Assembly (NCBI GenBank): GCA_963663865.1
Contig: OY760686.1
Location: 2,080,001-2,144,000, forward strand
DNA length: 64,000 nucleotides
Reading direction: 5' to 3'
Origin: Spirochaetota bacterium
GTDB lineage: Bacteria; Spirochaetota; UBA4802; UBA5550
Part shown: piece after piece, positions 33,434 to 43,806 of the stretch
Numbering within the stretch: the first letter of the stretch is position 1
How the letters are laid out: every line of letters starts with the position of its first letter
The notes under the pieces: model-generated
Database searches by the model: none
Seen by the model: the letters and a program-made list of their open reading frames with translations, nothing else
Told to the model about the DNA's origin: nothing
Program-made: the position numbers and the translations under genes

Positions 33434-34314
33434 AAATTTCAGATATATCTGATATCAAACTGGAACGTTTTCTTCTTGGTGAATTGCCTGACAAAGAAAT
33501 GCATGAAATTACTGCTGCCATTAAAAACACAGAGCTAAAAAATAGGATTGAAAGGATAAATAAACAAACCAGGAATTTCCAGAACGATTTTCGTACCTTT
33601 AATACCTTAAAACATCTAAAAATGTCAATTAAGGATAATAATCAAACAGTTAATATCTCAAAATATTTATTAACGATTGTTCCCGCAGCAGCAGCAGCGG
33701 TAATTATTCTTGTTATAAATTTCAACAACACACCGCATACAATCAACAACACCTCTGTGTCTTCAATCGCCGCAAATAGTAACAACACCACAGTTGCAAA
33801 TATTAAGAACAATTCTGTTATATCCGCATACAATCCAACAGATCATTCCAATGATACAACACGTATCAAGGGCGAACCCTCAATCTATCTATACTTAAAA
33901 GAACGTGGGAAGGTCAAACTACTGGAACCCGGATCGGAAGCCCATCAGGGCGATCTAATTCAAATAGCCTACTCTGTCCCATCTGACTGCTGGGGAACAA
34001 TTCTTTCATTAGACGGAAGGGGTGCTATTTCAACCCATTTGCCTCTGGACACATCAGGAAAAACAGCAATCAAGGCTGGCGGCAAACAACTTGTAAGTCA
34101 CTCATACGAGCTTGATGATGCGCCTCATTTTGAATACTTCCTATTTATTACATCACCAAAAGAATTTGAAATTAATCAAATATTAGAAGCCCTAAAGCTT
34201 GAGACAGATAAAATCATAAGTAATATAAACAATTCTGAAACTCCCGTTTTTAACCCTGGCAAGGAATATAAAATTTCCTCAATAATTATCAAGAAGGCAA
34301 GTTATGAAAAATAG
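33430..34314 (+). CDS. Putative anti-sigma factor: N-terminal helical domain, TM, periplasmic DUF4384/ActD-like domain
   Basis: LERFLLGELP, single TM (LLTIVPAAAAAVIILVI), RIKG, GDLIQIAY, SLDGRG, SYELDDAPHFE; ATGA overlap with the sigma gene. Confidence 0.75.
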   Translation: MKISDISDIKLERFLLGELPDKEMHEITAAIKNTELKNRIERINKQTRNFQNDFRTFNTLKHLKMSIKDNNQTVNISKYLLTIVPAAAAAVIILVINFNNTPHTINNTSVSSIAANSNNTTVANIKNNSVISAYNPTDHSNDTTRIKGEPSIYLYLKERGKVKLLEPGSEAHQGDLIQIAYSVPSDCWGTILSLDGRGAISTHLPLDTSGKTAIKAGGKQLVSHSYELDDAPHFEYFLFITSPKEFEINQILEALKLETDKIISNINNSETPVFNPGKEYKISSIIIKKASYEK

Positions 34315-36655
34315 TGCAAATATATACAGGATTCTAATTATTCTTTCATCTCTATTACTCTTTGTAGGCCTTGCAAATGCCGAGAGTAAAAATCATATAA
34401 GAAGGTTTTGCTTCGTTGCAGGAGCTAATGATGGTGGTATCGAAAGAGTAAAACTCAAGTACGCGGTAAAAGACTCTTATTCATTTTCCGGACTACTACA
34501 TTCAATAGGAGGAATATCGAAAGACGACTCACGTTTGCTTGTTAATCCACGAAGGGATGCTTTTTTAAAAGAGTTAACAGATTTTGCATCTTCAGTAAGC
34601 TCCATATCAAACAAAGATGAACGAACAGAGTTTTTATTTTATTATTCGGGACACTCAGATGAAAAATCAATTCTGCTTGGCAACGAGAATGTCAGTTATA
34701 CCGAAATCAGAGACATTATCAACCGAATTGATGCAGACGTAAAAATTGCCATACTTGACTCATGTTCATCAGGCGCTTTTACCCGGCTTAAGGGCGGCAA
34801 ACTACGCTCCCCCTTTTTAGTCGATGCAGCACACAACATGAAGGGTTTTGCTTTCATGACTTCAAGCTCCGTAGACGAAGCTTCACAGGAGTCCGACCGA
34901 ATCCGTGGTTCGTTTTTCACTCATTATCTTTTAACCGGACTTAGAGGTGCAGCTGACCTCAATCGCGACGGGAAAATTACTTTAAATGAGGCTTACCAGT
35001 TTGCTTACTTCGAAACCCTTGCCGGTACACAGCAGACTCTTGCCGGTCCGCAGCATCCGAACTATGCAATTCAAATGACTGGAACAGGCGACGTTATCAT
35101 GACTGACATTCGTCGAAGTTCATCTATTCTTGTAATTCCAGCAAGTATACACGGCAGACTCTATGTCAAAAACAGCAATGACATCCTCGTCTGTGAGCTC
35201 AGAAAAATGCCGGGCCAGGATATTGAACTTGGACTTGAAGAAGGAGATTATACAGTACTTCTTTCCCAGGAAGCCACTCTTCTCGAAGGGGAACTGGTCC
35301 TGCAGGAAGGTGAGAAAACTGAACTTAAATTAGATCTGCTCACCAGAGCTGATACCGAGTATACTCTTCAAAGAGGCACTAATCCAATGCCTGATATTCA
35401 AAAAAGTCAACATCAATATAATTTTGAGGAACAGGTGTGGTACTTCTCGCCAATATACCGCAAAAGCGGAAGAGAAAATATTCAAAATCGATTTGTTTTT
35501 AATCTCTTTGGGAGTTATTCTGCTGCAATCGACGGATTTAGTTTTGGTTTTGGCCCTACAGTAACAGAATATGACATGACAGGTTTTCATTGTTCAATAA
35601 TAGGGAACTATGCGGGCGGCAACGCAGAAGGCCTGTTATTCAGCAATATTTTCAATGTTGTTTGTCAAGATTTTGCCGGTGTTGAACACAGTGGTCTTTT
35701 TAACATTAATTATGGTGATACAAAAGGATTACAGTTAGCCTCACTGTTCAATATGTCCGACGGCGAAACCAAATGGGTCCAGATTTCAGGCCTTTTTAAT
35801 ACATCCGGGAAAGATTTTTATGGTTTCCGTATTTCTGGCCTTTTCAACTATGGTGGTAATAATTCCCACGGCTTTTCAGCCACTGGATTATTTAATCAAA
35901 CAGTCAATGACTTTTCGGGTGTAAACATTGCCGGCCTATACAACATATCTGGTGGTAAGGCTTCCGGTTTCCAGGCAGCCGGACTTTTTAACTATTCAGA
36001 GAAATCATCTTCAGGATTCAATGCCGCTGGACTGTACAATATAACACAAGATTCCTTCAAGGGTGTTAATATTGCCGGACTGTTCAACAAAGCTGACAAT
36101 ATTACCGGCGCTCAGATTGCACCAGTAAATATTTCTAAAAACGTTAAAGGTCTTCAACTCGGAGTAATCAACATAGCCGAAGAATCCGGAGGTCTTCCGA
36201 TTGGTATTATAAATGTATCAGGTGACGGCGGAATTGAGCTGGTCTGCTGGAGCAGCACAACCATGCTTTTAAATACAGGCTTTCTGTTCCGATCAGGATA
36301 TTTTTACTCAATCATTGCGGGTTCAACATTCAATTCAGAGTTCAGTGGCAAGGGTGATTCTTTCGGATACAGCTATTATGCCGGTGTACAGATACCTGTT
36401 TCAATATTATTTTTCAGCGTTGACGTGGGCCAACTGACAGTGGACAACAAAAAGATTTTTGACTACTCTTCATCGAACGACTTCCAGGTACTTCAGGGAA
36501 GATTGTCTGCTGGGATAAAAATATTGAATCGAATCTCATTTTTTGGCGGAACATCAATAAACTATAAATATACCTATGACCGATTTAAAGACGGAAAGCT
36601 TGAGGCTGAATACTTTGGAGGAGTTAGACTGTCTGTCTTCGGTAAAAATTTATAA
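34304..36655 (+). CDS. Exported caspase-like protease (C14) with beta-solenoid repeats and probable C-terminal beta-barrel
   Basis: Signal peptide (ANA-E); FYYSGH117, ILDSC154; GSFFTHYL..GLRGAAD.NRDGKITLNEAY; GxxxxGLFN repeats. Confidence 0.88.
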   Translation: MKNSANIYRILIILSSLLLFVGLANAESKNHIRRFCFVAGANDGGIERVKLKYAVKDSYSFSGLLHSIGGISKDDSRLLVNPRRDAFLKELTDFASSVSSISNKDERTEFLFYYSGHSDEKSILLGNENVSYTEIRDIINRIDADVKIAILDSCSSGAFTRLKGGKLRSPFLVDAAHNMKGFAFMTSSSVDEASQESDRIRGSFFTHYLLTGLRGAADLNRDGKITLNEAYQFAYFETLAGTQQTLAGPQHPNYAIQMTGTGDVIMTDIRRSSSILVIPASIHGRLYVKNSNDILVCELRKMPGQDIELGLEEGDYTVLLSQEATLLEGELVLQEGEKTELKLDLLTRADTEYTLQRGTNPMPDIQKSQHQYNFEEQVWYFSPIYRKSGRENIQNRFVFNLFGSYSAAIDGFSFGFGPTVTEYDMTGFHCSIIGNYAGGNAEGLLFSNIFNVVCQDFAGVEHSGLFNINYGDTKGLQLASLFNMSDGETKWVQISGLFNTSGKDFYGFRISGLFNYGGNNSHGFSATGLFNQTVNDFSGVNIAGLYNISGGKASGFQAAGLFNYSEKSSSGFNAAGLYNITQDSFKGVNIAGLFNKADNITGAQIAPVNISKNVKGLQLGVINIAEESGGLPIGIINVSGDGGIELVCWSSTTMLLNTGFLFRSGYFYSIIAGSTFNSEFSGKGDSFGYSYYAGVQIPVSILFFSVDVGQLTVDNKKIFDYSSSNDFQVLQGRLSAGIKILNRISFFGGTSINYKYTYDRFKDGKLEAEYFGGVRLSVFGKNL
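35534..36229 (+). repeat. About 15 protein-level repeats (mostly 16 aa; G-x4-G-L-[FY]-N), LA_2272-like surface repeat
   Basis: e.g. GFRISGLFNYGGNNSH / GFSATGLFNQTVNDFS / GVNIAGLYNISGGKAS / GFQAAGLFNYSEKSSS. Confidence 0.85.
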
Positions 36656-36666
36656 AACATAAATAC

Positions 36667-36697
36667 AAAAAACCGCGGTAAAAAACCGCGGTTTTTT
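36667..36697. terminator. Bidirectional intrinsic terminator
   Basis: aaaaaaccgcggt-aaaaa-accgcggtttttt. Confidence 0.85.
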
Positions 36698-36884: not shown

Positions 36885-39494
36885 CTAAACGTCTACATTT
36901 TCCATCTCGATTATATTGTTCTGTGCGATCGCAAGCTTTGCAAGTGGGATTGAATAAGGCGAACATGAAACATAATTCATCCCTGTATTCATACAAAATC
37001 GGATATTATCCGGATTTGCACCATGTTCACCACACAGCCCCATCTTGATATCCGGCCTGGTCAGTCTGCCCCGTAGAGCAGCCAGCTCTATCAGCTCCTT
37101 GACTTCATCGCCAAGTAGATTAAATGGATTGTGTTTCATTAAGTCATAAAGAGAATAATCCGGGAAGAAAGTCGTAGAATCATCTCTTGAGAGCCCATAA
37201 GTTGTCTGAGTCAGGTCATTGGTGCCGAAGCTGAAAAATTCCGCATATTGTGCTATATTTCCAGCACCCAGAGCGGCGGCAGGAAGTTCAATCATTGTTC
37301 CAATTTTACAGTCAAGATGGTCAATACCGTATTCTTCTAGAACCTCTTTTTTTACATCAAGGATTCCCTTAACCATTTGACCTTCAATTTTTTTGCCATT
37401 TTTAATAAACTTAACTTCCTGTTCACTCATAACGATAGGTATCATTATTTCTGGTAAAACTTTTACGCCTTCTTTTTTGAGCATACATGCTGCCTCAAAA
37501 ATTGCTCTAACCTGCATTTCGTAAATCTCTGGATATGTTACAGCTACACGGCATCCTCTATGCCCGAGCATCGGGTTCATTTCAGCAAGATCAGAACATC
37601 TTGCCTTTAGATCTGCCGGCTTAAGGTTTTTCTGCCTCGTTTTCATGTATGTGATGAATTCATTCATACTATCATCTGTTCTCGGCAGAAATTCATGTAG
37701 CGGGGCATCAAGAAGACGGATAGTTACAGGCTTATCCGACATGATTTTCAACAGTTCATAAAAATCTGCTCTCTGCATCGGTTTTAGTGCATCAAGGGCC
37801 TTAAGTCTATCTTTATCATCTGTAGCAATTATCATTTCACGGAATTTCATTATGCGTTTTTCATTAAAGAACATGTGTTCAGTTCTGCAAAGTCCGATTC
37901 CAACAGCCTTAAAATCACGGGCAACTAAAGCATCTCGCCCCTGATCGGCGTTTGCGCGAACATTAAAATCTGTGACATATCCATCAACTATTTCCAGGAA
38001 ATCATTAAGCCCATTTGTTTTAAAATCAGGCTGGATCAAACCGACTTTTCCAAGATAGATCGTCGGATCTTCGTAGTAAGGGACATTAATTGAAATATAG
38101 TCGCCTTCTTTTACTGTTTTCCCGCCAATAGTCAGTGAATTTTTCGTCAGCTTCATGTCAGGTTGAACCATGGCGACCTTTCCAAGGCTTCTTGCAACAA
38201 CAGGAGCATGAGATGAGAATCCTCCCTCAGTCGTGATAACACCCTGAGCAACCTCAATAGCCTTAACATCTTCTGCAAAAGAAGACGGAAGTACCAAAAT
38301 GAGATTTTTATCCTCGCCGTGCATTATTGCTTTTTTGTATTCATCGAGAAGCCTTGGCGTAGAGAAGAAAACACGGCCTATAGCAGCTCCAGTTGATCCT
38401 GCGATTCCTCCCTTTATTGATTTAACTGTTTTAATTGTTCGAGGATCAATAACTGGATGGAGAAGTTCGTTTAATTGATTGGGCTTAATTGTTTTAATCA
38501 GCTCTTTTTTCTCTATTATACCACGGCTGCATAAATCAAGGAGAGTTTTTATCTGTGCCTGTGTTGACTTTTCATCACACTCTCTCTGTTCGACAAGCCA
38601 GAAATCATTCTCTTCAATAGTAAACTTTACATCTCTAATCTCATGAAAGTTGTCTTCAATACTCTGGGCCATCTGTGAAAGCTTTTTTAAGTACCCTTTG
38701 TCTATCGAAGACAATGCTCGTGCCTTGCCTTTCGTCAGATCAAATTCATTTTGCAAATATTGTCCTTGAATTTCTTTTTCTCCGGTGATTATATTACGAG
38801 TGTAAAAATTACCCGCATACGAATTGTCACCAAAATTACCATAAACCATAACTTGAACAATTATAGACATTGAATCATCAACGTCTATTTCAGAATCGCA
38901 GTATTTTGAAGCTGCCTGTTTCAATATCAGACTAAGTTGATCATAAGGGTCTAGCATGAATTCTTCGCCAAATTCCTTTAAATACGCACTAATCATTTCA
39001 TCTGATTTTTCCTTTGTACCTTTTTTTGCCGCAAACGGCGCTTCAAACTTCTTAATCTCATCTGCGGTCATATCGAAAAGATACTGCCCGACCCTCCTTA
39101 GTAAAAACAAAAATTCACCGTTTGCGAAATCCCTGTCAGTAAATTTTGCAAACCCTTTTACGGTTTCAAAGTTTAGCCCGATATTGTGAATTGAAGGAAA
39201 AAATGGTATATTGAGGTCAGAACTCAACACTACCTTCAGAAGAAGAGGTTTGTTTGAATCACCATACTTCTTCTTTGTTTCTTTTTCAAGATTTGTGATG
39301 TGTGACTTTAGCATTTCCTTTAGATTTACATTTGGAAGCTTTTTCGTTAAAACCGAATCTATAATAAAGCCTGGAGCTATTGGCAATCCCATCAATGCAA
39401 GATCAACTGCTCTTCTGCCCCTGATACCAATTTTCTCTTTTTGCTTTGCAGGTATTTCTTTTAAATCTTTATTGAAATAAATAATATTTTCCAT
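36885..39494 (-). CDS. ppdK: Pyruvate phosphate dikinase homologue with degenerate nucleotide-binding domain (PEP-utilising phosphotransferase)
   Basis: Intact: GGFSSH429APVVAR, GLCRTEHMF, IRLLD, NPMLGHRGCR, MIE, SFGTNDLTQ, CGEHG. Altered N-domain: GIRG, LKVVLSS, no GEDVVAG, DVKF. Confidence 0.85.
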   Translation of the reverse strand: MENIIYFNKDLKEIPAKQKEKIGIRGRRAVDLALMGLPIAPGFIIDSVLTKKLPNVNLKEMLKSHITNLEKETKKKYGDSNKPLLLKVVLSSDLNIPFFPSIHNIGLNFETVKGFAKFTDRDFANGEFLFLLRRVGQYLFDMTADEIKKFEAPFAAKKGTKEKSDEMISAYLKEFGEEFMLDPYDQLSLILKQAASKYCDSEIDVDDSMSIIVQVMVYGNFGDNSYAGNFYTRNIITGEKEIQGQYLQNEFDLTKGKARALSSIDKGYLKKLSQMAQSIEDNFHEIRDVKFTIEENDFWLVEQRECDEKSTQAQIKTLLDLCSRGIIEKKELIKTIKPNQLNELLHPVIDPRTIKTVKSIKGGIAGSTGAAIGRVFFSTPRLLDEYKKAIMHGEDKNLILVLPSSFAEDVKAIEVAQGVITTEGGFSSHAPVVARSLGKVAMVQPDMKLTKNSLTIGGKTVKEGDYISINVPYYEDPTIYLGKVGLIQPDFKTNGLNDFLEIVDGYVTDFNVRANADQGRDALVARDFKAVGIGLCRTEHMFFNEKRIMKFREMIIATDDKDRLKALDALKPMQRADFYELLKIMSDKPVTIRLLDAPLHEFLPRTDDSMNEFITYMKTRQKNLKPADLKARCSDLAEMNPMLGHRGCRVAVTYPEIYEMQVRAIFEAACMLKKEGVKVLPEIMIPIVMSEQEVKFIKNGKKIEGQMVKGILDVKKEVLEEYGIDHLDCKIGTMIELPAAALGAGNIAQYAEFFSFGTNDLTQTTYGLSRDDSTTFFPDYSLYDLMKHNPFNLLGDEVKELIELAALRGRLTRPDIKMGLCGEHGANPDNIRFCMNTGMNYVSCSPYSIPLAKLAIAQNNIIEMENVDV

Positions 39495-39530: not shown

Positions 39531-40433
39531 CTAGAAAAGATTAAGCACTTTACCCACTCCGATTTTCAAGAACTGCTCAAATCTGTGGCTGGCGCCTTCA
39601 TAAAGATATTTCTGCAGCTTTGAAATGCCGCGAATATCCTCTCCTGCCACCTGGAAGAAAATTGAATCACCATGTTTAACCTTCCCCCATTTAAAAAGCG
39701 CATTTATGTCATTTATGAGTTCATTCTGGTGGTATATATATACCTTCAAGTCAGGATATTTCGTTGTGAAGCTTTCAATTATCTTCTTCCATGCTTCTAC
39801 ATTTCCATTGTGAAATAATTCGTTTGAAACCTGCACCGCATATTTGGGCGTTACATTCTTTTTAGATGGTGCGGCCTGAGTAACCGGTTTTTTTACCGGC
39901 AATTTCGGAGCAATAGTTTGATCAATAAAATCTGGACTTATAAAAACATCTTTTCCAGACATCATCTCCTCAATAGCATTAATGGCGTCCTGCTCAACTT
40001 TTTTATCATTTTGTTTTATAAACCTTGCGTAAATAACCGCAAGCTGATCCTGCACTATTTCACGAACCCTTTCCCAGTGTTCCGGATTCTTTGGATTAAT
40101 CAGCAATACCTTCCCGCCTGACGTAAAGTAAACGATAACGATATCAACAGCGGTCCACTTCATCGTTTCAGTATATATACTTTCAAATTCATTGAGATTT
40201 GAAAGGAGATTTATTGATCTTGCTGAATAACCGTAACGGTCTCGCAACAATGCCCCTACAACTGGCAATATCTGATCTTGACTAACTTCCTCTTCATCAA
40301 GAAAAGTATTCATAACATCCGCCAGGTTTCGTTTCGCTTCCATATCAGCAACTACATCGTTAACAGAATAAAAATGCCTCAATGCCTTGTTGAAATTACT
40401 CTTTGTAGCCAGCGAATAATATGTGGTGTCCAT
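39531..40433 (-). CDS. Hypothetical protein with C-terminal HPr-like domain (His208)
   Basis: VQVSNELFH...NALFKWG.VKHGDSIFFQVAGED aligns by eye to HPr (ITAPNGLH...KSLFKL...GTVVTISAEGED). ORF is clear; fold is inferred. Confidence 0.75.
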   Translation of the reverse strand: MDTTYYSLATKSNFNKALRHFYSVNDVVADMEAKRNLADVMNTFLDEEEVSQDQILPVVGALLRDRYGYSARSINLLSNLNEFESIYTETMKWTAVDIVIVYFTSGGKVLLINPKNPEHWERVREIVQDQLAVIYARFIKQNDKKVEQDAINAIEEMMSGKDVFISPDFIDQTIAPKLPVKKPVTQAAPSKKNVTPKYAVQVSNELFHNGNVEAWKKIIESFTTKYPDLKVYIYHQNELINDINALFKWGKVKHGDSIFFQVAGEDIRGISKLQKYLYEGASHRFEQFLKIGVGKVLNLF

Positions 40434-40469: not shown

Positions 40470-40498
40470 ATACTATGATATTGCACTATAATATGCAA
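40470..40498 (-). promoter_or_regulatory. Sigma-70 promoter of the HPr-like/PPDK-like genes, with overlapping inverted repeat
   Basis: Minus strand TTGCAT-N17-TAGTAT; TTGCA-N8-TGCAA palindrome at 40481-40498. Confidence 0.55.
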
Positions 40499-40519
40499 GT
40501 ATTTTGAAATATTTCCTGT

Positions 40520-40549
40520 AAAAAAAGGGGAAGCCTAACCGGCTTCCCC
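40520..40549 (-). terminator. Intrinsic terminator after cfpA
   Basis: Minus strand GGGGAAGCC-GGTTA-GGCTTCCCC-TTTTTTT. Confidence 0.88.
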
Positions 40550-40576
40550 CTGTATTTATGCTGATTCATTGCTTGG

Positions 40577-42526
40577 TTATATCTCAGTAAGGCCTGATCT
40601 CTTTTTTCTTCCCTTTGATGCGGATGGAAGCTCAACAGATCCTGAAGCTTCGCTATCGGACTGTGCGCTATACGCTGCAGCAAAAAGATCATCACCAGTC
40701 GCTCCTTCATCGGCGAAAGACTGCGTAATATCTTCCCGCATTGTTGAACGTCTTCTGCTGTAAGTAGCGAATGCTGCATCTGCAAATCCTTTTGAAACAC
40801 TGTAAAGAAACTCATTAAGTACGTTTGACATACCCTTAAGCATATACTGCTTACGTTTAATTGTTGTTATGTCAATATCAAGGATAAGTCCCGGCTGAAT
40901 ATGATGAGGATTTACCAGATATGTAAACTGGTTGAATCTCTTCTCAAGGAAGTTTATTCTTTCATCAAGGATAACACGCTCAACGGGATTCTGATATCCA
41001 TGCATTCCTTTAAGCAGGTCTTTCAGGTAAACAAGCTTGCCTTTAAGATTTTTAATTCTCTGCTCATAAGTTCTGTTATTCTTTTCAACAAATGTATCTT
41101 CATTGTATAGCTCTCCGACCTCATTCCATATTATTGACTCAGGATCAGCCTCTCTCATTTTCTTCTCACGCTTCCAATCCTTATTCATGAGTCTGCCGGC
41201 GAGATCATCAAAATCCTTCAGAGATCTAAATCTCTTTCTGGATTCATAATAAGCATGGACTACTTCCCAAACTGCCATTATCTCAGTTGTGAATGCCGAC
41301 ATTTGCTTGTCGTACTCTTTTTTCTCCTCTCTAAGCTGATTCTGATCGAGAAATGCGAGCCTCATTCCATATCTTTCATCAGGCAGAAGAGTGTGATCTA
41401 CCTCTTCATATTCTCGAATATTACATACCCTTGCGTTTTTCATGTTATCGCAAACCTGATATCCGAGTTTACTTGTATCGAGAATTGAAGTTATCGAGTT
41501 AATACATGTGTTGTATCCCCTGTTTCGAATATTCTCTTCATCAATTATATGCTTGATATTCTCACGGATATTCAGCGGGTCAAACTCATCAAGATCTATC
41601 TCGGCTCTAAGGCCCTCAATTTTATCAAGGAATTTTTTAGCGAGGATAGTATATCGTTTCGATTTCTCATCCTCTTTCTCGTCGTCAGTGAATCCCTCTA
41701 TTCTCTTAACTTTTTCAAACATTTTCTCGGCAGCTGTAAGTTCATTCTTTCCCTGATCGACGAGCTCATCATTAAATTGCTGAACCTGTCTGTCGATAAG
41801 ATCCTGGATATGCTTCTGGATCGCATCTTTCATCAGAGCTTCTACAGTTGTCTGATAATGGTACATTGGACTAACAAGCTCACTGTCGAGAATGTTAATT
41901 GAAAGTTTAACATCATAAACATATTTAGGACGGAGTTCATTGTCTTTAAAAACGCATTTTAGAATCGCGTAGGCGTTCTCGCCTCTGACGAAAGCTCCAA
42001 CATCTGTCTTCTGTCTTAAAATTGCGTTTGTTTCTGTTTCCAGATCATTTACACCTCTCTGAATATGTCCCTGAAGGTGGCCATACATGTTTACAATGGA
42101 CTTTTCTATCTCACCGGTATGAAACTTGTCAGCGCCGCCAATTTTGTCCAGCATCTCGACAATCTCTTTCGGTGTATACCTGGCAAGACCCTTTGATTCT
42201 TCTTTATCAACAAAGTCCCTGACCTTTTTGATAAACTCATCTTCCATTGTAACCGTGTAGCGGTTAAACATATTAACATATGTCTGGTTGATGTAGTTAT
42301 AAAGCTTCTCCTTCAAACCGCCCATTACATCAAGCTTTTCAAGGACTTCGTCCGGGAGCTTGGTAAGAACCTGATTTAAAATCTTGTCAGCTGTTTCATC
42401 AACGATCAGCTTTCCTTCTTCTACCTTATTTCGGCCTTCCTGTGCCAGTGATTCCCTTGAACCAACCGCATTGGGAATGGTAGGGTGGACTTTATTCGGG
42501 CTTTTTGGAAATTGAGTTAAAGACAT
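40577..42526 (-). CDS. cfpA: Cytoplasmic filament protein A
   Basis: N-terminus PKSPNKVHP..P.AVGSR.SLAQ matches Treponema CfpA as I recall it; coiled-coil-rich; AGGAGG RBS. Confidence 0.88.
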   Translation of the reverse strand: MSLTQFPKSPNKVHPTIPNAVGSRESLAQEGRNKVEEGKLIVDETADKILNQVLTKLPDEVLEKLDVMGGLKEKLYNYINQTYVNMFNRYTVTMEDEFIKKVRDFVDKEESKGLARYTPKEIVEMLDKIGGADKFHTGEIEKSIVNMYGHLQGHIQRGVNDLETETNAILRQKTDVGAFVRGENAYAILKCVFKDNELRPKYVYDVKLSINILDSELVSPMYHYQTTVEALMKDAIQKHIQDLIDRQVQQFNDELVDQGKNELTAAEKMFEKVKRIEGFTDDEKEDEKSKRYTILAKKFLDKIEGLRAEIDLDEFDPLNIRENIKHIIDEENIRNRGYNTCINSITSILDTSKLGYQVCDNMKNARVCNIREYEEVDHTLLPDERYGMRLAFLDQNQLREEKKEYDKQMSAFTTEIMAVWEVVHAYYESRKRFRSLKDFDDLAGRLMNKDWKREKKMREADPESIIWNEVGELYNEDTFVEKNNRTYEQRIKNLKGKLVYLKDLLKGMHGYQNPVERVILDERINFLEKRFNQFTYLVNPHHIQPGLILDIDITTIKRKQYMLKGMSNVLNEFLYSVSKGFADAAFATYSRRRSTMREDITQSFADEGATGDDLFAAAYSAQSDSEASGSVELPSASKGRKKRSGLTEI

Positions 42527-42705: not shown

Positions 42706-43806
42706 TTATGAAGCAAAATATTTAAAAGTATAGTTTTTAACCTTAAAAACATCGCCGTCTTCAATAAAGCCCTTATCCTCAGAATTTTTAAACTCCACCT
42801 TAATTCCTTCAGGAACGAGCAATGACAGAGAGATTCCCCCTTTTGCTCCACGGACAGCCTTAAGAGCGAATGAAGCTCTTGCGGCGAACTCTCTGATATT
42901 TAGATGACAACCGGCTCCTTTTCCAATTACTATGACCCTGGAGTTAAACCTGTTAATGTCAAAGTGCTCAACAACTGGATTTAATATTTCATTATTCCAG
43001 TATTCAATCCTGCCATGCGCCTTGAGCTGCGAAAATCTTCTGATAAGCACTATCAATATTATAAGAATTATTATAATAGCTGCTATTATTCCGGCCCCTG
43101 CAATTTCCGAAGAAGACACGCTTCTCGAATCTACGGCTGCTTCAACCTTCTCAAGGCCCTTTAGCGGCTCGTCGCTTGCATCAATGACTCTGACATTACC
43201 CTTTACCGAAGCAGCATCGCCATCACCAGCAGCCCCCTGACTGCCCGCCTTTTCTTGATCGCTTTTCCCTTTTTTTAAACCGGCATAATCCACAATATAT
43301 ACCCACCAATCCTTTCCTTCATAATGGTCGGCTATGTTCTTGATATTTGCCCTTCTTGCGGAACCGGGTGAAGGATCGTCGATACCGTCAGTCATAACTA
43401 CAATAACAACCTGTGAATCGGGATTGTCCATTTCAAGCTCGGCCGCCCTTCTGCGAACTTCTTCAATCATCATCGCGGTATTTGTCCATTTCCCGCGGGT
43501 GGTTGTCATTTTTATAAACTTTTTCAGGATATCCTTGTCGTTTTTGTCCTCGATTTTGACCGTTGGGTATACCTTTACCCTCTCATCAAATGTAACAAAA
43601 GTAACATTATCTGAGTTTGAGAGGCCATCAATGTATGACGATATACTCTCCTTTACCTGATTAATTATGTCCTTGCCTCCCGAGCCGGCCATGCTGTAGG
43701 ATGAGTCCAGGACAAGTATGACGTTTCTGTCCTTTGCCAAAAGCTCAACACCCAAAATCGGGATAACAAGCACAGCAAGGAAAAGGATACTCAATACTTT
43801 CTTCAT
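42706..43806 (-). CDS. vWA domain membrane protein
   Basis: Signal peptide, MIDAS LDSSYSM...T...MTDG, single TM, cytoplasmic beta domain (FHA-like, uncertain). Confidence 0.8.
   Translation of the reverse strand: MKKVLSILFLAVLVIPILGVELLAKDRNVILVLDSSYSMAGSGGKDIINQVKESISSYIDGLSNSDNVTFVTFDERVKVYPTVKIEDKNDKDILKKFIKMTTTRGKWTNTAMMIEEVRRRAAELEMDNPDSQVVIVVMTDGIDDPSPGSARRANIKNIADHYEGKDWWVYIVDYAGLKKGKSDQEKAGSQGAAGDGDAASVKGNVRVIDASDEPLKGLEKVEAAVDSRSVSSSEIAGAGIIAAIIIILIILIVLIRRFSQLKAHGRIEYWNNEILNPVVEHFDINRFNSRVIVIGKGAGCHLNIREFAARASFALKAVRGAKGGISLSLLVPEGIKVEFKNSEDKGFIEDGDVFKVKNYTFKYFAS

What the first reader, a model, noticed from the sequence alone, without database searches (positions are those of the whole stretch)
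38580..39494. Nucleotide-binding motifs of the PPDK homologue are systematically replaced
Compared with canonical PPDK motifs (C. symbiosum numbering, recalled): GGKG (K22) -> GIRG; SVRSG (R92) -> KVVLSS; SMPGMMDT -> NIPFFPS; QGEDVVAG missing (QNEFDLTKG); DMEF (E323) -> DVKF; LQTR -> VEQR (R337 kept). The regulatory-Thr context TSH reads SSH. All C-terminal catalytic motifs are intact and the frame is unbroken, so this looks like selective loss rather than a pseudogene. A dikinase annotation, and any metabolic model relying on it, may be wrong. Alternatives: the domain now senses a ligand, docks a protein, or uses Pi only.
Basis: partly seen in the sequence, partly recalled or inferred. Interest (0 to 1): 0.7.

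Follow-up and report, generated by a model that had tools for sequence, protein, structure and literature searches.

The report
Filament-linked PPDK paralogue, remodelled ATP site
This gene is not a decaying copy of the glycolytic enzyme pyruvate phosphate dikinase but a member of an old, well-conserved spirochaete branch of it, the same branch as the only 'PPDK' of the syphilis bacterium, whose ATP-handling pocket has been rebuilt and which travels with the cytoplasmic-filament gene cfpA, so calling it an ATP-making dikinase may be wrong.

Summary
The 869-aa ORF (36885-39494, minus strand) aligns end to end with solved PPDKs. The phosphate and Mg residues of its ATP-grasp domain are replaced: K22R, R92V, E323K, Q335E, and the MPGMMDT and QGEDVVAG loops are lost. 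The swivel histidine and all PEP/pyruvate motifs are intact.

It is not private decay. The same pattern, with new conserved residues (Lys two positions before the lost Arg, a new His), defines an old paralogue clade separated from all canonical PPDKs by one fully supported branch. This genome also has a canonical ppdK and a pyruvate kinase.

The paralogue sits directly after a TP0747-family gene in 20 of 20 related loci. That gene's product is predicted to carry an HPr-like fold. cfpA is usually adjacent too. Outside the order, 66 of 70 cfpA-bearing genomes have the paralogue.

The orthologue in a 1.14-Mb genome matches T. pallidum TP0746. No canonical PPDK or pyruvate kinase was found there.

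In T. denticola the orthologue is reported as a major envelope-fraction protein, as is CfpA, and to be co-regulated with cfpA.

Best reading (about 0.4): a PEP-charged His-swivel enzyme with a non-nucleotide acceptor or docking site, working with the filament module. A modified true dikinase is not excluded (about 0.25).

The parts
36885..39494 (-). ppdkL: 869-aa PPDK paralogue (stop codon included)
   Evidence: ORF. Full-length match to PPDK structures. TIGR01828 scores 695.5 bits, below its 843.45 cut-off.
38475..39494 (-). Remodelled ATP-grasp (former nucleotide-binding) domain, residues 1-340
   Evidence: Pfam PPDK_N matches only residues 258-314 at 32.8 bits. Mean pLDDT per 10-residue block is mostly 82-95. 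Thirteen of the 30 family-versus-canonical fixed differences lie here.
39417..39428 (-). G23-I-R25-G26, in place of GGK22G
   Evidence: alignment. R is present in 37 of 38 family members.
39186..39236 (-). K87-V-V89-L-S91 ... P97-F-F-P-S-I-H103, in place of SVR92SGAR..MPG101MMDT..L107
   Evidence: K87, V89, S91 and H103 are each conserved in 37 of 37 family rows, against S, R, G and L in 95-100% of canonical rows.
38739..38753 (-). Q248-N-E-F251-D252, followed by a deletion of about 10 residues where canonical PPDKs have QGEDVVAG
   Evidence: alignment block. F251 versus canonical Q.
38622..38633 (-). D288-V-K290-F291, in place of D321-M-E323-F
   Evidence: K or R in 37 of 38 family members.
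38583..38594 (-). V-E302-Q303-R304, in place of L-Q335-T-R337
   Evidence: D/E at 302 and Q303 are conserved. Position 304 varies across the family.
37995..38474 (-). Phospho-histidine swivel domain (about residues 341-500), with S427-S-H429 at 38208-38216 and the family-specific insertion VPYY 471-474
   Evidence: Pfam PEP-utilizers, 40.6 bits. H429 is invariant. Ten fixed differences lie here.
36888..37994 (-). PEP/pyruvate-binding TIM-barrel domain (about residues 501-869), with all catalytic motifs and the family-specific invariant insertion G700-K-K-I-E-G705 (37380-37397)
   Evidence: Pfam PEP-utilizers_C, 232 bits. Motifs. Insertion.
39531..40433 (-). TP0747-family gene (300 aa), 36 bp upstream of ppdkL. 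Residues 69-161 (39951-40229) are predicted to have an HPr-like fold. Residues 190-300 (39534-39866) form a highly conserved domain with invariant H208 (39810-39812).
   Evidence: Adjacent to ppdkL in 20 of 20 related loci. Atlas names it TP_0747_N at score 0.94. AF2 model pLDDT 83.9. VIA-align top five hits are all HPr/NPr, Z 9.0-6.9. Invariant residues.
40577..42526 (-). cfpA, cytoplasmic filament protein A
   Evidence: NF040882 scores 903.8 bits, cut-off 500.
42706..43806 (-). VWA-domain membrane protein, conserved upstream neighbour of cfpA
   Evidence: Pfam VWA at E 5e-13. Present in 17 of 20 related loci.
40525..40551 (-). Terminator-like hairpin (11 pairs plus a T run) between cfpA and the TP0747-like gene
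   Evidence: This is a consensus scan only.
36667..36697 (-). Terminator-like hairpin (13 pairs) about 190 nt after the ppdkL stop
   Evidence: This is a consensus scan only.

Best explanation
The ORF belongs to an ancient, vertically inherited paralogue family of pyruvate phosphate dikinase. The family is found in cfpA-bearing spirochaetes and includes T. pallidum TP0746 and T. denticola TDE0844.

Shown here:
- The three-domain PPDK architecture, the swivel histidine and every PEP/pyruvate-site motif are conserved.
- The phosphate- and Mg-binding residues of the ATP-grasp domain are replaced family-wide by a different, equally conserved set: R25, K87, V89, H103, R287, K/R290, D/E302. The two loops that canonical PPDKs conserve at this site are gone.
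- The gene is encoded directly after a TP0747-family gene and usually after cfpA.

Inferred:
- The enzyme still charges its histidine from PEP, or discharges it to pyruvate.
- It no longer carries out the canonical Mg-dependent AMP/PPi to ATP/Pi half-reaction.
- The His domain instead delivers the phosphoryl group to a remodelled, basic, probably metal-free site. That site binds another acceptor or docks a partner.

Most speculative step: the partner is the co-encoded TP0747-like protein, which has an HPr-like fold and an invariant His208. The trio would then form an Enzyme I/HPr-like, PEP-driven module attached to the CfpA cytoplasmic filament rather than a bulk ATP-forming glycolytic step.
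For: Site remodelling is family-wide and conserved:
- The motif table covers 38 cfpA-linked copies.
- There are 30 fixed family-versus-canonical differences, including R25/K, K87/S, V89/R, H103/L, R287/Q and Q303/T.
- Of the 150 best representatives, 42 carry the family pattern, 92 the canonical one and 16 neither.

The replaced residues matter:
[quoted passage not shown] I equate these with R92 and E323.
- PDB holds K22A, R337A and T453A mutant structures (titles only).

Purifying selection:
- N-domain identity among orthologues is 0.65, against 0.75 for canonical copies in the same 15 genomes.
- The His domain is 0.81 and the C-domain 0.79.
- The AF2 model has pLDDT 86.4 and pTM 0.83.

Distinct clade: one branch with SH-like support 100 separates 55 divergent rows from 48 canonical rows. 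The spirochaete canonical copies nest among other bacteria's.

Non-redundancy: G000 also has a canonical ppdK and a pyruvate kinase. At least 29 of 40 relatives show both paralogue types.

Linkage:
- The TP0747-like gene is adjacent to ppdkL in 20 of 20 related loci, and cfpA is adjacent in 18 of 20.
- 17 of 20 cfpA loci outside the order hold all three genes.
- 66 of 70 cfpA-positive genomes outside the order have the paralogue. Only 1 genome has it without a cfpA hit.
- In three small genomes the three genes are dispersed but all retained.

Partner fold: the TP0747-like model's five best matches out of 48,161 chains are all HPr/NPr, with Z 9.0-6.9, rmsd 1.9-2.4 A and about 80 of 85 residues aligned.

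Published experiments:
- TDE0844 'PPDK' is band 1 and CfpA (TDE0842) band 3 among the major envelope-fraction proteins of T. denticola (PMC3931704 Table 2, passages).
- TDE0842-0844 are repressed together (PMC3914990 Table 5, passages).
Against: - No activity has been measured for any family member that I could find.
- The conserved basic residues (R25, K87, R233, K/R290), the retained VQxMVYGN and TRNxxTG motifs and the intact fold could still bind a nucleotide or PPi. K87 may stand in for R92.
- In the genome whose gene matches T. pallidum TP0746 (G133, 99% complete), neither a canonical PPDK nor a pyruvate kinase was found. The paralogue may therefore have to carry real PEP-to-pyruvate flux there. 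A GTP-PEPCK plus oxaloacetate-decarboxylase bypass is encoded.
- The HPr likeness is structural only. None of 36 family members hits Pfam PTS-HPr, and hhalign probability is under 1%.
- The position equivalent to HPr His15 in residues 69-161 is not conserved.
- Z 9 is only modestly above the background the tool quotes for such searches.
- Co-fractionation of an abundant protein in an envelope preparation is weak evidence of attachment.
Confidence: 0.4

Rival explanations
1. It is still a genuine pyruvate phosphate dikinase (PEP + AMP + PPi <-> pyruvate + ATP + Pi). Its ATP-grasp site has been rewired: R25 replaces K22, K87 replaces R92, and a K/R290-D/E302 pair replaces the E323/Q335 metal ligands. 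It may have altered metal dependence or kinetics and be localised at the filament.
For: G133, whose gene matches TP0746, has no canonical PPDK and no pyruvate kinase. The treponeme literature assumes this reaction (PMC10013896, passages). Basic residues are conserved in the pocket, along with retained core ATP-grasp motifs. The whole swivel architecture is kept.
Against: R92, E323 and Q335 are all replaced, and the MPGMMDT and QGEDVVAG loops are lost in every member. A Lys or Arg sits where a Mg ligand should be. Most genomes keep a canonical PPDK and a pyruvate kinase beside it, which argues against a redundant function. It scores below the PPDK equivalog cut-off, at 695 and 608 bits against 843.
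Confidence: 0.25
2. The N-domain is no longer a catalytic site. It is a docking or regulatory domain, binding the filament, the TP0747-like protein or a metabolite. The PEP/pyruvate and His modules would act as a sensor of the PEP:pyruvate ratio, as in nitrogen-PTS Enzyme I, or as a slow PEP phosphatase.
For: The family has specific conserved surface features outside the old pocket: VPYY 471-474 and GKKIEG 700-705. There is the linkage to cfpA and the envelope-fraction location of TDE0844. R337 is not conserved.
Against: The new residues cluster at the old phosphate/Mg positions and are invariant, which looks like a site and not a surface. The His domain is the most conserved part of the protein at 0.81. 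A wasteful PEP phosphatase would be costly at this abundance.
Confidence: 0.15
3. The remodelled site accepts only inorganic phosphate. The enzyme would then make pyrophosphate from PEP (PEP + Pi -> pyruvate + PPi) and feed PPi-dependent glycolysis.
For: The adenosine-side loops are lost while several basic residues are kept or gained at the phosphate end of the pocket. From recall, not checked here: treponemes use PPi-dependent phosphofructokinases, so a PPi source would be useful.
Against: No precedent for this reaction is known to me. It does not explain the linkage to cfpA and the TP0747-like gene.
Confidence: 0.1
4. It is a decaying or functionless duplicate of ppdK.
For: Canonical motifs are missing and a canonical copy exists.
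Against: The frame is open in all 38 copies examined. The N-domain is 65% identical across an order, and the same substitutions are fixed across the phylum. The genome with the TP0746 match (1.14 Mb) keeps it. A published proteome lists the orthologue as abundant.
Confidence: 0.02

Closest known systems
Pyruvate, phosphate dikinase (EC 2.7.9.1; TIGR01828; structures 1DIK/1KBL, 1VBG, 5JVJ/5JVL, 2X0S)
   Same: Same three-domain architecture, collinear over about 850 residues (E 1e-154; Foldseek TM up to 0.78). Same swivel His and the same PEP/pyruvate-site motifs, including the catalytic-loop Cys.
   Different: Scores below the equivalog cut-off. K22R, R92V, E323K/R, Q335D/E, R337 variable, T453S/A, and the MPGMMDT and QGEDVVAG loops are lost. 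New invariant K87, H103, R287. Insertions VPYY and GKKIEG. Forms a separate clade and is linked to cfpA.
T. pallidum TP0746 and T. denticola TDE0844, both annotated 'pyruvate phosphate dikinase'
   Same: Orthologues. The gene order cfpA - TP0747-like - PPDK-like is the same. They are 48% identical to this protein against 34-35% to the canonical paralogue, and carry the same signature. The G133 ORF has Ala869 and Pro655 at exactly the genome positions of the published TP0746 variants.
   Different: They are 901 and about 950 aa long, with small extensions. Position 337 is K. No canonical PPDK or pyruvate kinase was found in G133, unlike this genome.
Enzyme I and HPr of the PEP:sugar phosphotransferase system
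   Same: Homologous PEP-binding and His domains. A PEP-charged histidine passes phosphate to a small protein partner. The gene next door encodes a protein with an HPr-like fold.
   Different: Not a member: TIGR01417 gives 107 bits against a cut-off of 341.7. The N-terminal domain is a modified ATP-grasp, not the helical HPr-binding subdomain. The partner has no sequence similarity to HPr and no conserved His at the HPr active-site position of its first domain.
VadK (Rv1127c) of M. tuberculosis, a regulatory histidine kinase evolved from PPDK (PMC13400623, abstract seen)
   Same: Precedent for a PPDK descendant that left central metabolism for a regulatory, partner-binding role while keeping histidine autophosphorylation.
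   Different: From recall and its NCBIfam-like length only: VadK keeps the ATP-grasp and His domains and lacks the PEP domain. Here the PEP domain is kept and the ATP-grasp site is changed.
Rifampin phosphotransferase and PEP synthase (other ATP-grasp plus swivel-His enzymes)
   Same: Same modular logic, with a His domain shuttling between two substrate domains (weak Foldseek hits).
   Different: Those enzymes keep a working ATP-grasp site and change the other substrate domain. This one does the opposite.

Membership tests
Pyruvate, phosphate dikinase (TIGR01828 equivalog) | Whole-protein score above the curated cut-off (843.45 bits) | tested here: not met
   695.5 bits. The orthologue in G133 scores 608.5. 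The canonical paralogues of three treponeme-side genomes (G054, G337, G345) score 1275-1353. This genome's own canonical copy was not scored against TIGR01828.
Pyruvate, phosphate dikinase | Three domains in order: ATP-grasp, swivel His domain, PEP/pyruvate TIM barrel | tested here: met
   Pfam finds all three domains. Full-length alignment to 1dik. The AF2 model matches 5jvj_A over 900 columns at TM 0.78.
Pyruvate, phosphate dikinase | Catalytic histidine (H455) and PEP/pyruvate-site motifs, including the Cys of GxCGEHG | tested here: met
   H429 is invariant. The motifs are identical or near-identical in 38 of 38 family members.
Pyruvate, phosphate dikinase | ATP/Pi-site residues K22, R92, E323, Q335 and the MPGMMDT and QGEDVVAG loops | tested here: not met
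   R25, V89, K290 and E302; both loops are lost. The roles of these residues are partly recalled. R92 and E323 are supported by PMC5507339.
Pyruvate, phosphate dikinase | AMP/PPi-dependent ATP formation from PEP | not testable with these tools
   Needs an enzyme assay.
cfpA-linked PPDK-like paralogues (TP0746/TDE0844 type; no curated model found) | Signature R22/K90/V92/H107/[KR]323/[DE]335 in C. symbiosum numbering, plus the GKKIEG insertion | tested here: met
   All six positions and the insertion are present. The protein falls inside the clade with SH-like support 100.
cfpA-linked PPDK-like paralogues | Encoded directly downstream of a TP0747-family gene, usually with cfpA | tested here: met
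   The window has cfpA, a 143-bp gap, the TP0747-like gene, a 36-bp gap, then ppdkL. The arrangement holds in 20 of 20 and 18 of 20 related loci.
PTS Enzyme I (TIGR01417) | Score above the cut-off (341.7 bits) | tested here: not met
   107.4 bits, covering the C-terminal domain only.
HPr (PF00381), for the neighbouring TP0747-like protein | HPr fold (beta-alpha-beta-beta-alpha-beta-alpha open sandwich) | tested here: met
   Residues 69-161 give Z 9.0, 8.7, 7.9, 7.2 and 6.9 to HPr/NPr, with rmsd 1.9-2.4 A and about 80 of 85 residues aligned. The next unrelated hit has Z 5.5. This rests on a predicted model.
HPr (PF00381), for the neighbouring TP0747-like protein | Sequence membership and a conserved active-site His15 | tested here: not met
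   None of 36 members hits PF00381. hhalign probability is below 1%. There is no conserved His in the loop before helix 84-90. Whether the C-terminal domain, with invariant H208, is a second HPr fold is inconclusive: its best Z is 5.5 to other alpha/beta folds.
CfpA (NF040882), for the gene two upstream | Equivalog cut-off of 500 bits | tested here: met
   903.8 bits.

The most novel reading that the evidence does not exclude
Spirochaetes with cytoplasmic filaments run a previously unrecognised PEP-driven phosphorelay. The PPDK-derived enzyme would act like Enzyme I, charging its histidine from PEP. It would pass the phosphate, at its rebuilt ex-ATP site, to the HPr-fold TP0747-family protein (candidate acceptor His208) on the CfpA filament. 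That would couple glycolytic state to the cytoskeleton, cell division or motility. A corollary is that the sole 'PPDK' of T. pallidum (TP0746) does not make ATP, so current energy budgets for the syphilis agent would be wrong.
Probability: 0.22. Interest if true: 0.9.

Novelty: new variant of a known kind. Interest (0 to 1): 0.75.

Why it matters
First, hundreds of database proteins of this clade are named 'pyruvate, phosphate dikinase' by some sources. The list includes the only PPDK-type gene found in the genome that matches T. pallidum. Papers on T. pallidum assume it converts PEP, AMP and PPi to pyruvate and ATP (PMC10013896). If the ATP site is not a nucleotide site, energy and PPi budgets and drug-target reasoning for treponemes need revision.

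Second, the persistent pairing with cfpA and an HPr-fold protein, together with published co-fractionation and co-regulation in T. denticola, gives the first concrete candidates for what the enigmatic cytoplasmic filament interacts with. It also makes a link between metabolism and the cytoskeleton directly testable.

Third, it mirrors VadK. There a PPDK descendant kept the ATP-grasp domain. Here the descendant kept the PEP domain. Together they are a useful pair for studying how swivel-domain enzymes change partners.

Tried and rejected
- Complex prediction of ppdkL residues 1-505 with the TP0747-like protein, each as an alignment. The result was 'no answer' (score 0.01, mark 0.32). It counts neither for nor against binding.
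- Sequence tests of the HPr likeness. Pfam scan of all 36 TP0747-like proteins at E up to 10 gave no PTS-HPr hit. hhalign of each half against an alignment of 23 true HPr proteins from relatives gave probability below 1%, and the two halves against each other gave 2.4%. The likeness is therefore structural only.
- The profile search of PDB sequences with the TP0747-like alignment gave nothing below E 0.05.
- Foldseek of the TP0747-like model gave HPr hits only at E 0.05-0.2. The claim rests on VIA-align.
- The pseudogene or decay reading was rejected on conservation.
- Regulatory-threonine reading: no PDRP/DUF299 (PF03618) was found in G000, G133 or G054. The T-to-S/A change is therefore unlikely to concern that regulator.
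- TP0746 as the only possible PEP exit in T. pallidum was rejected. GTP-PEPCK and the oxaloacetate decarboxylase beta subunit are encoded. ATP-PEPCK is not.
- Papers PMC5371819 and PMC8525777 gave nothing decisive.
- Literature searches for any description of the altered ATP site or of TP0747 found only routine mentions. Six papers name TP0746 or TDE0844 and none names TP0747. Subscription journals are not covered.
- A first attempt to add the 150 representatives with MAFFT timed out. It was replaced by hmmalign.
- Earlier-notes look-ups by place and by sequence returned nothing.


Full report
**What is at the coordinates.** The window holds one open frame at 36885-39494 on the minus strand, 869 codons without a stop. 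The finding's span, 38580-39494, covers codons 1-305.

Pfam finds the three PPDK domains with very unequal scores:
- PEP-utilizers_C: 232 bits.
- Mobile His domain: 40.6 bits.
- PPDK_N: 32.8 bits, over residues 258-314 only.

For comparison, this genome's canonical ppdK gives 277, 83.6 and 228.3 bits. NCBIfam's PPDK equivalog TIGR01828 gives 695.5 bits, below its 843.45 cut-off.

phmmer against PDB chains aligns the protein end to end with C. symbiosum PPDK (1dik, E 1.2e-154).
- K22 -> R25.
- S90-V-R92 -> K87-V-V89.
- The MPG101MMDT loop -> IP-FFPS, with one residue missing.
- QGEDVVAG absent.
- D321-M-E323-F -> D-V-K290-F.
- L-Q335-T-R337 -> V-E302-Q-R304.
- T453-S-H455 -> S-S-H429.

The numbering is the one used in the field. 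PDB holds K22A, R337A and T453A mutants (titles). PMC5507339 states that the Flaveria equivalents Arg95 and Glu324 are directly involved in ATP binding (passages). The kinetic effects of K22, R92, D321, E323 and Q335 mutants in C. symbiosum PPDK are recalled from older literature that I did not see. All C-terminal motifs are intact.

**It is a family signature.** The N-terminal 340 residues alone find hundreds of proteins. The best 120 are 59-97% identical to it, mostly from uncultured Spirochaetota. Sources name them variously 'pyruvate, phosphate dikinase', 'PEP-utilizing enzyme' or 'putative PEP-binding protein'.

In 40 relatives of the window's genome:
- 36 have a full orthologue of this N-domain at 53-70% identity, and one more has a contig-cut fragment.
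- The three without a hit are 65-91% complete.
- At least 29 also have a second hit at 26-33% identity in a 900-1060-aa frame, which is the canonical type.

The window's own genome (3.16 Mb, one contig) has a textbook ppdK of 902 aa at C1:443235-445943. It carries GGKG, SVRSGARVSMPGMMDT, NAQGEDVVAG, DIEF, LQTR and TSH. The genome also has a pyruvate kinase.

Paired comparison over 15 genomes of the order gives these mean identities:

| Domain | canonical vs canonical | divergent vs divergent | the two copies of one genome |
|---|---|---|---|
| N-domain | 0.75 | 0.65 | 0.24 |
| His domain | 0.76 | 0.81 | 0.35 |
| C-domain | 0.78 | 0.79 | 0.52 |

The N-domain is therefore under purifying selection, only somewhat relaxed, and it differs from the canonical one in a domain-selective way.

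Thirty positions are fixed differently in the two families (37 divergent and 44 canonical rows):
- Old pocket: R25/K, K87/S, V89/R, S91/G, H103/L, F251/Q, R287/Q, Q303/T.
- His domain: S427/T and an inserted VPYY.
- C-domain: an invariant inserted GKKIEG, and A739/R.

A search of 1.84 billion cluster representatives with the N-domain gave 32 hits at E <= 1e-30. Of the 150 best hits:
- 42 carry the family pattern (R, K, aliphatic, H, K/R, D/E) at all or all but one covered position.
- 92 carry the canonical pattern (K, S, R, L, E, Q).
- 16 carry neither.

A FastTree of 103 full-length rows puts all 47 divergent rows, plus 8 of the odd ones, on one side of a branch with SH-like support 100. The 18 spirochaete canonical copies form one clade (support 98) nested among other bacteria's PPDKs. 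This was a quick method, the tree is unrooted, and long branches were flagged. The paralogue is old and is not a recent duplicate of the resident ppdK.

The AF2 model of the whole protein is confident, with pLDDT 86.4 and pTM 0.83. Most N-domain blocks score 82-95. Its best structural matches are PPDKs over about 900 columns.

**Context.** On the same strand upstream lie three genes:
- A 300-aa gene with no Pfam hit, at 39531-40433, 36 bp from ppdkL.
- cfpA at 40577-42526 (NF040882, 903.8 bits).
- A VWA-domain gene.

A strong terminator-like hairpin follows cfpA and another follows ppdkL (consensus scan only). This suggests cfpA is transcribed on its own, with the 300-aa gene and ppdkL as a pair or as read-through.

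In 20 loci from relatives:
- The 300-aa gene is adjacent to ppdkL in 20 of 20.
- cfpA is adjacent in 18 of 20.
- The VWA gene is present in 17 of 20.
- In the two exceptions cfpA lies on another contig.

Across a 401-genome sample of the phylum, cfpA is found in 148 genomes. Outside the window's order:
- 66 of the 70 cfpA-positive genomes have a strong match to this N-domain (E <= 2e-35).
- One genome has such a match without a cfpA hit. Its contig ends right after the 300-aa gene.
- The 28 weaker matches are of canonical type.

Twenty cfpA-centred loci were taken outside the order. Seventeen hold cfpA, the 300-aa gene's homologue and a PPDK-like gene that is 40-56% identical to this protein and 34-38% identical to the canonical paralogue. 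Sixteen of the 17 have the same order and strand. All 17 PPDK-like genes show the same motif pattern.

In three small genomes (1.7-1.8 Mb) the three genes lie on different contigs, yet all three are present. Co-occurrence therefore does not depend on adjacency alone.

**Link to the treponemes.** One of the 17 loci comes from handle G133, a single 1.14-Mb contig.
- Its PPDK-like ORF (C1:810674-813376, 901 aa) has Ala at codon 869 and Pro at codon 655.
- These fall at nt 810772 and 811414, exactly the positions and residues of the TP0746 variants A869T and P655S reported for T. pallidum (PMC10013896, passages).
- The ORF scores 608.5 bits on TIGR01828. It is the only PPDK-type gene found there.
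- No pyruvate kinase was found there at 99% completeness.
- A GTP-type PEPCK and an oxaloacetate decarboxylase beta subunit are encoded, so a route from PEP to pyruvate that bypasses TP0746 exists on paper.

The same paper states that TP0746 'most likely' makes pyruvate and ATP from PEP, AMP and PPi.

For T. denticola, two papers give the gene order TDE0842 cfpA, TDE0843 hypothetical, TDE0844 'PPDK':
- The three genes are repressed together in co-culture (PMC3914990 Table 5).

That TDE0844 is the divergent paralogue is my inference from its position beside cfpA.

**The neighbour.** The Atlas places the 300-aa protein with clusters named TP_0747 N-terminal domain (PF27497, score 0.94). This is a lead, and it is consistent with the synteny.

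Its alignment (36 sequences) shows a moderately conserved N-terminal half, a variable linker and an extremely conserved C-terminal 100 residues. The C-terminal motifs are NELFH208NGNVEAWK, LFKWGKVKHG and KLxKYLxEGASxRFExFL.

The AF2 model has pLDDT 83.9. Against 48,161 representative chains:
- The five best matches are all HPr or NPr, with Z 9.0, 8.7, 7.9, 7.2 and 6.9, rmsd 1.9-2.4 A and about 80 of 85 residues aligned. All map to residues 69-161.
- The next match has Z 5.5 and covers residues 190-286.
- Foldseek alone was weak, at E 0.05-0.2.

There is no sequence signal. The loop that would hold HPr's His15 is not conserved.

Residues 198-279 have the same beta-alpha-beta-beta-alpha-beta-alpha order as HPr, with the invariant His just before the first long helix. 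Earlier notes of this scan read this as a second HPr fold. I could not confirm that here.

**Mechanism.**

Shown:
- Conserved PEP/pyruvate and His modules.
- Loss of the canonical phosphate and Mg ligands and of the two loops.
- Gain of a different conserved set that is rich in basic residues. This includes a Lys two positions before the lost Arg and a Lys/Arg-Asp/Glu pair where the Glu and Gln metal ligands were.
- Conserved linkage and co-occurrence with cfpA and the TP0747-like gene.

Inferred:
- The enzyme still exchanges phosphate between PEP and its histidine.
- The canonical Mg-nucleotide/PPi chemistry is gone or greatly changed.
- The old pocket is now a metal-free anion or partner site.

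Speculative:
- The acceptor or docked partner is the HPr-fold neighbour.
- The module sits on the CfpA filament.

I put about 0.4 on this reading. I give 0.25 to a rewired but genuine dikinase. That rival is favoured by the finding that G133, the genome with the TP0746 match, shows no other PPDK or pyruvate kinase. I give 0.15 to a non-catalytic docking or sensing N-domain, 0.1 to a Pi-only, PPi-forming enzyme, and about 0.02 to decay.

**Comparison with what is known, and novelty.** The protein works like, and descends from, PPDK. It fails two defining tests of that family: the equivalog score and the ATP/Pi-site residues. It is not an Enzyme I either.

VadK of M. tuberculosis is a published case of a PPDK descendant turned regulatory histidine kinase (PMC13400623, abstract). 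It is a mirror-image precedent.

I found no paper that describes the altered site of TP0746 or TDE0844, or that mentions TP0747 at all. The library lacks most subscription journals.

Earlier notes of this scan on other genomes reached the same reading for other members of the family. Within the scan this is another member. Relative to the literature I could search, it is a new variant of a known kind.

Noticed in passing
window 34304-36655 (+): A 783-aa protein with an N-terminal signal-like segment, a caspase (Peptidase_C14) domain (E 3.8e-11) and a long C-terminal run of GLFN-type repeats. It converges on ppdkL.
   Followed up: no
relatives, e.g. G024:C1:462481-463332, G005:C1:102951-103718, G016:C3:119895-120653: A third class of weak PPDK_N-like matches (26-28% identity) lies inside open frames of about 1470-1490 aa in six relatives. 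It is a much longer protein with an ATP-grasp-like part.
   Followed up: no
representatives P0136, P0144, P0151, P0154, P0166, P0171, P0174, P0175, P0195, P0213, P0216, P0251 and others: Sixteen of the 150 best representatives have neither the canonical nor the family pattern at the six pocket positions. Eight of the 11 placed in the tree fall inside the divergent clade, so some lineages have drifted further.
   Followed up: partly
L033, L036, L037 (G081, G057, G070): Their orthologues are about 965 aa long (open frames 969-971) and carry an insertion of about 100 residues inside the N-domain, between the equivalents of residues 160 and 177.
   Followed up: no
L045:11289-14474 (G332) and L027 (G054): The orthologues are 1062 and 950 aa long, with extensions absent from the window's protein.
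   Followed up: no
L030:10013-10908 (G345): The TP0747-like gene matches in two pieces (query 11-169 and 176-300), and only the C-terminal part lies in one ORF. This may be a frameshift or a split gene.
   Followed up: no
G110, G119, G134 (family code f41, 1.7-1.8 Mb): cfpA, the TP0747-like gene and the PPDK-like gene are all present but on three different contigs. This is the only lineage seen where the pair next to each other is broken.
   Followed up: partly
G358:C1:2249885-2251645 and 2409371-2410372: A cfpA-like match lies inside a 2159-aa open frame with one TAA. A TP0747-like gene lies 160 kb away in two matched pieces. There was no strong match to the divergent N-domain (best E 2.3e-26, canonical type).
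   Followed up: no
window 40486-40815 (-): A 109-aa ORF overlaps the 3' end of cfpA and the terminator-like hairpin. It is probably not a gene.
   Followed up: no
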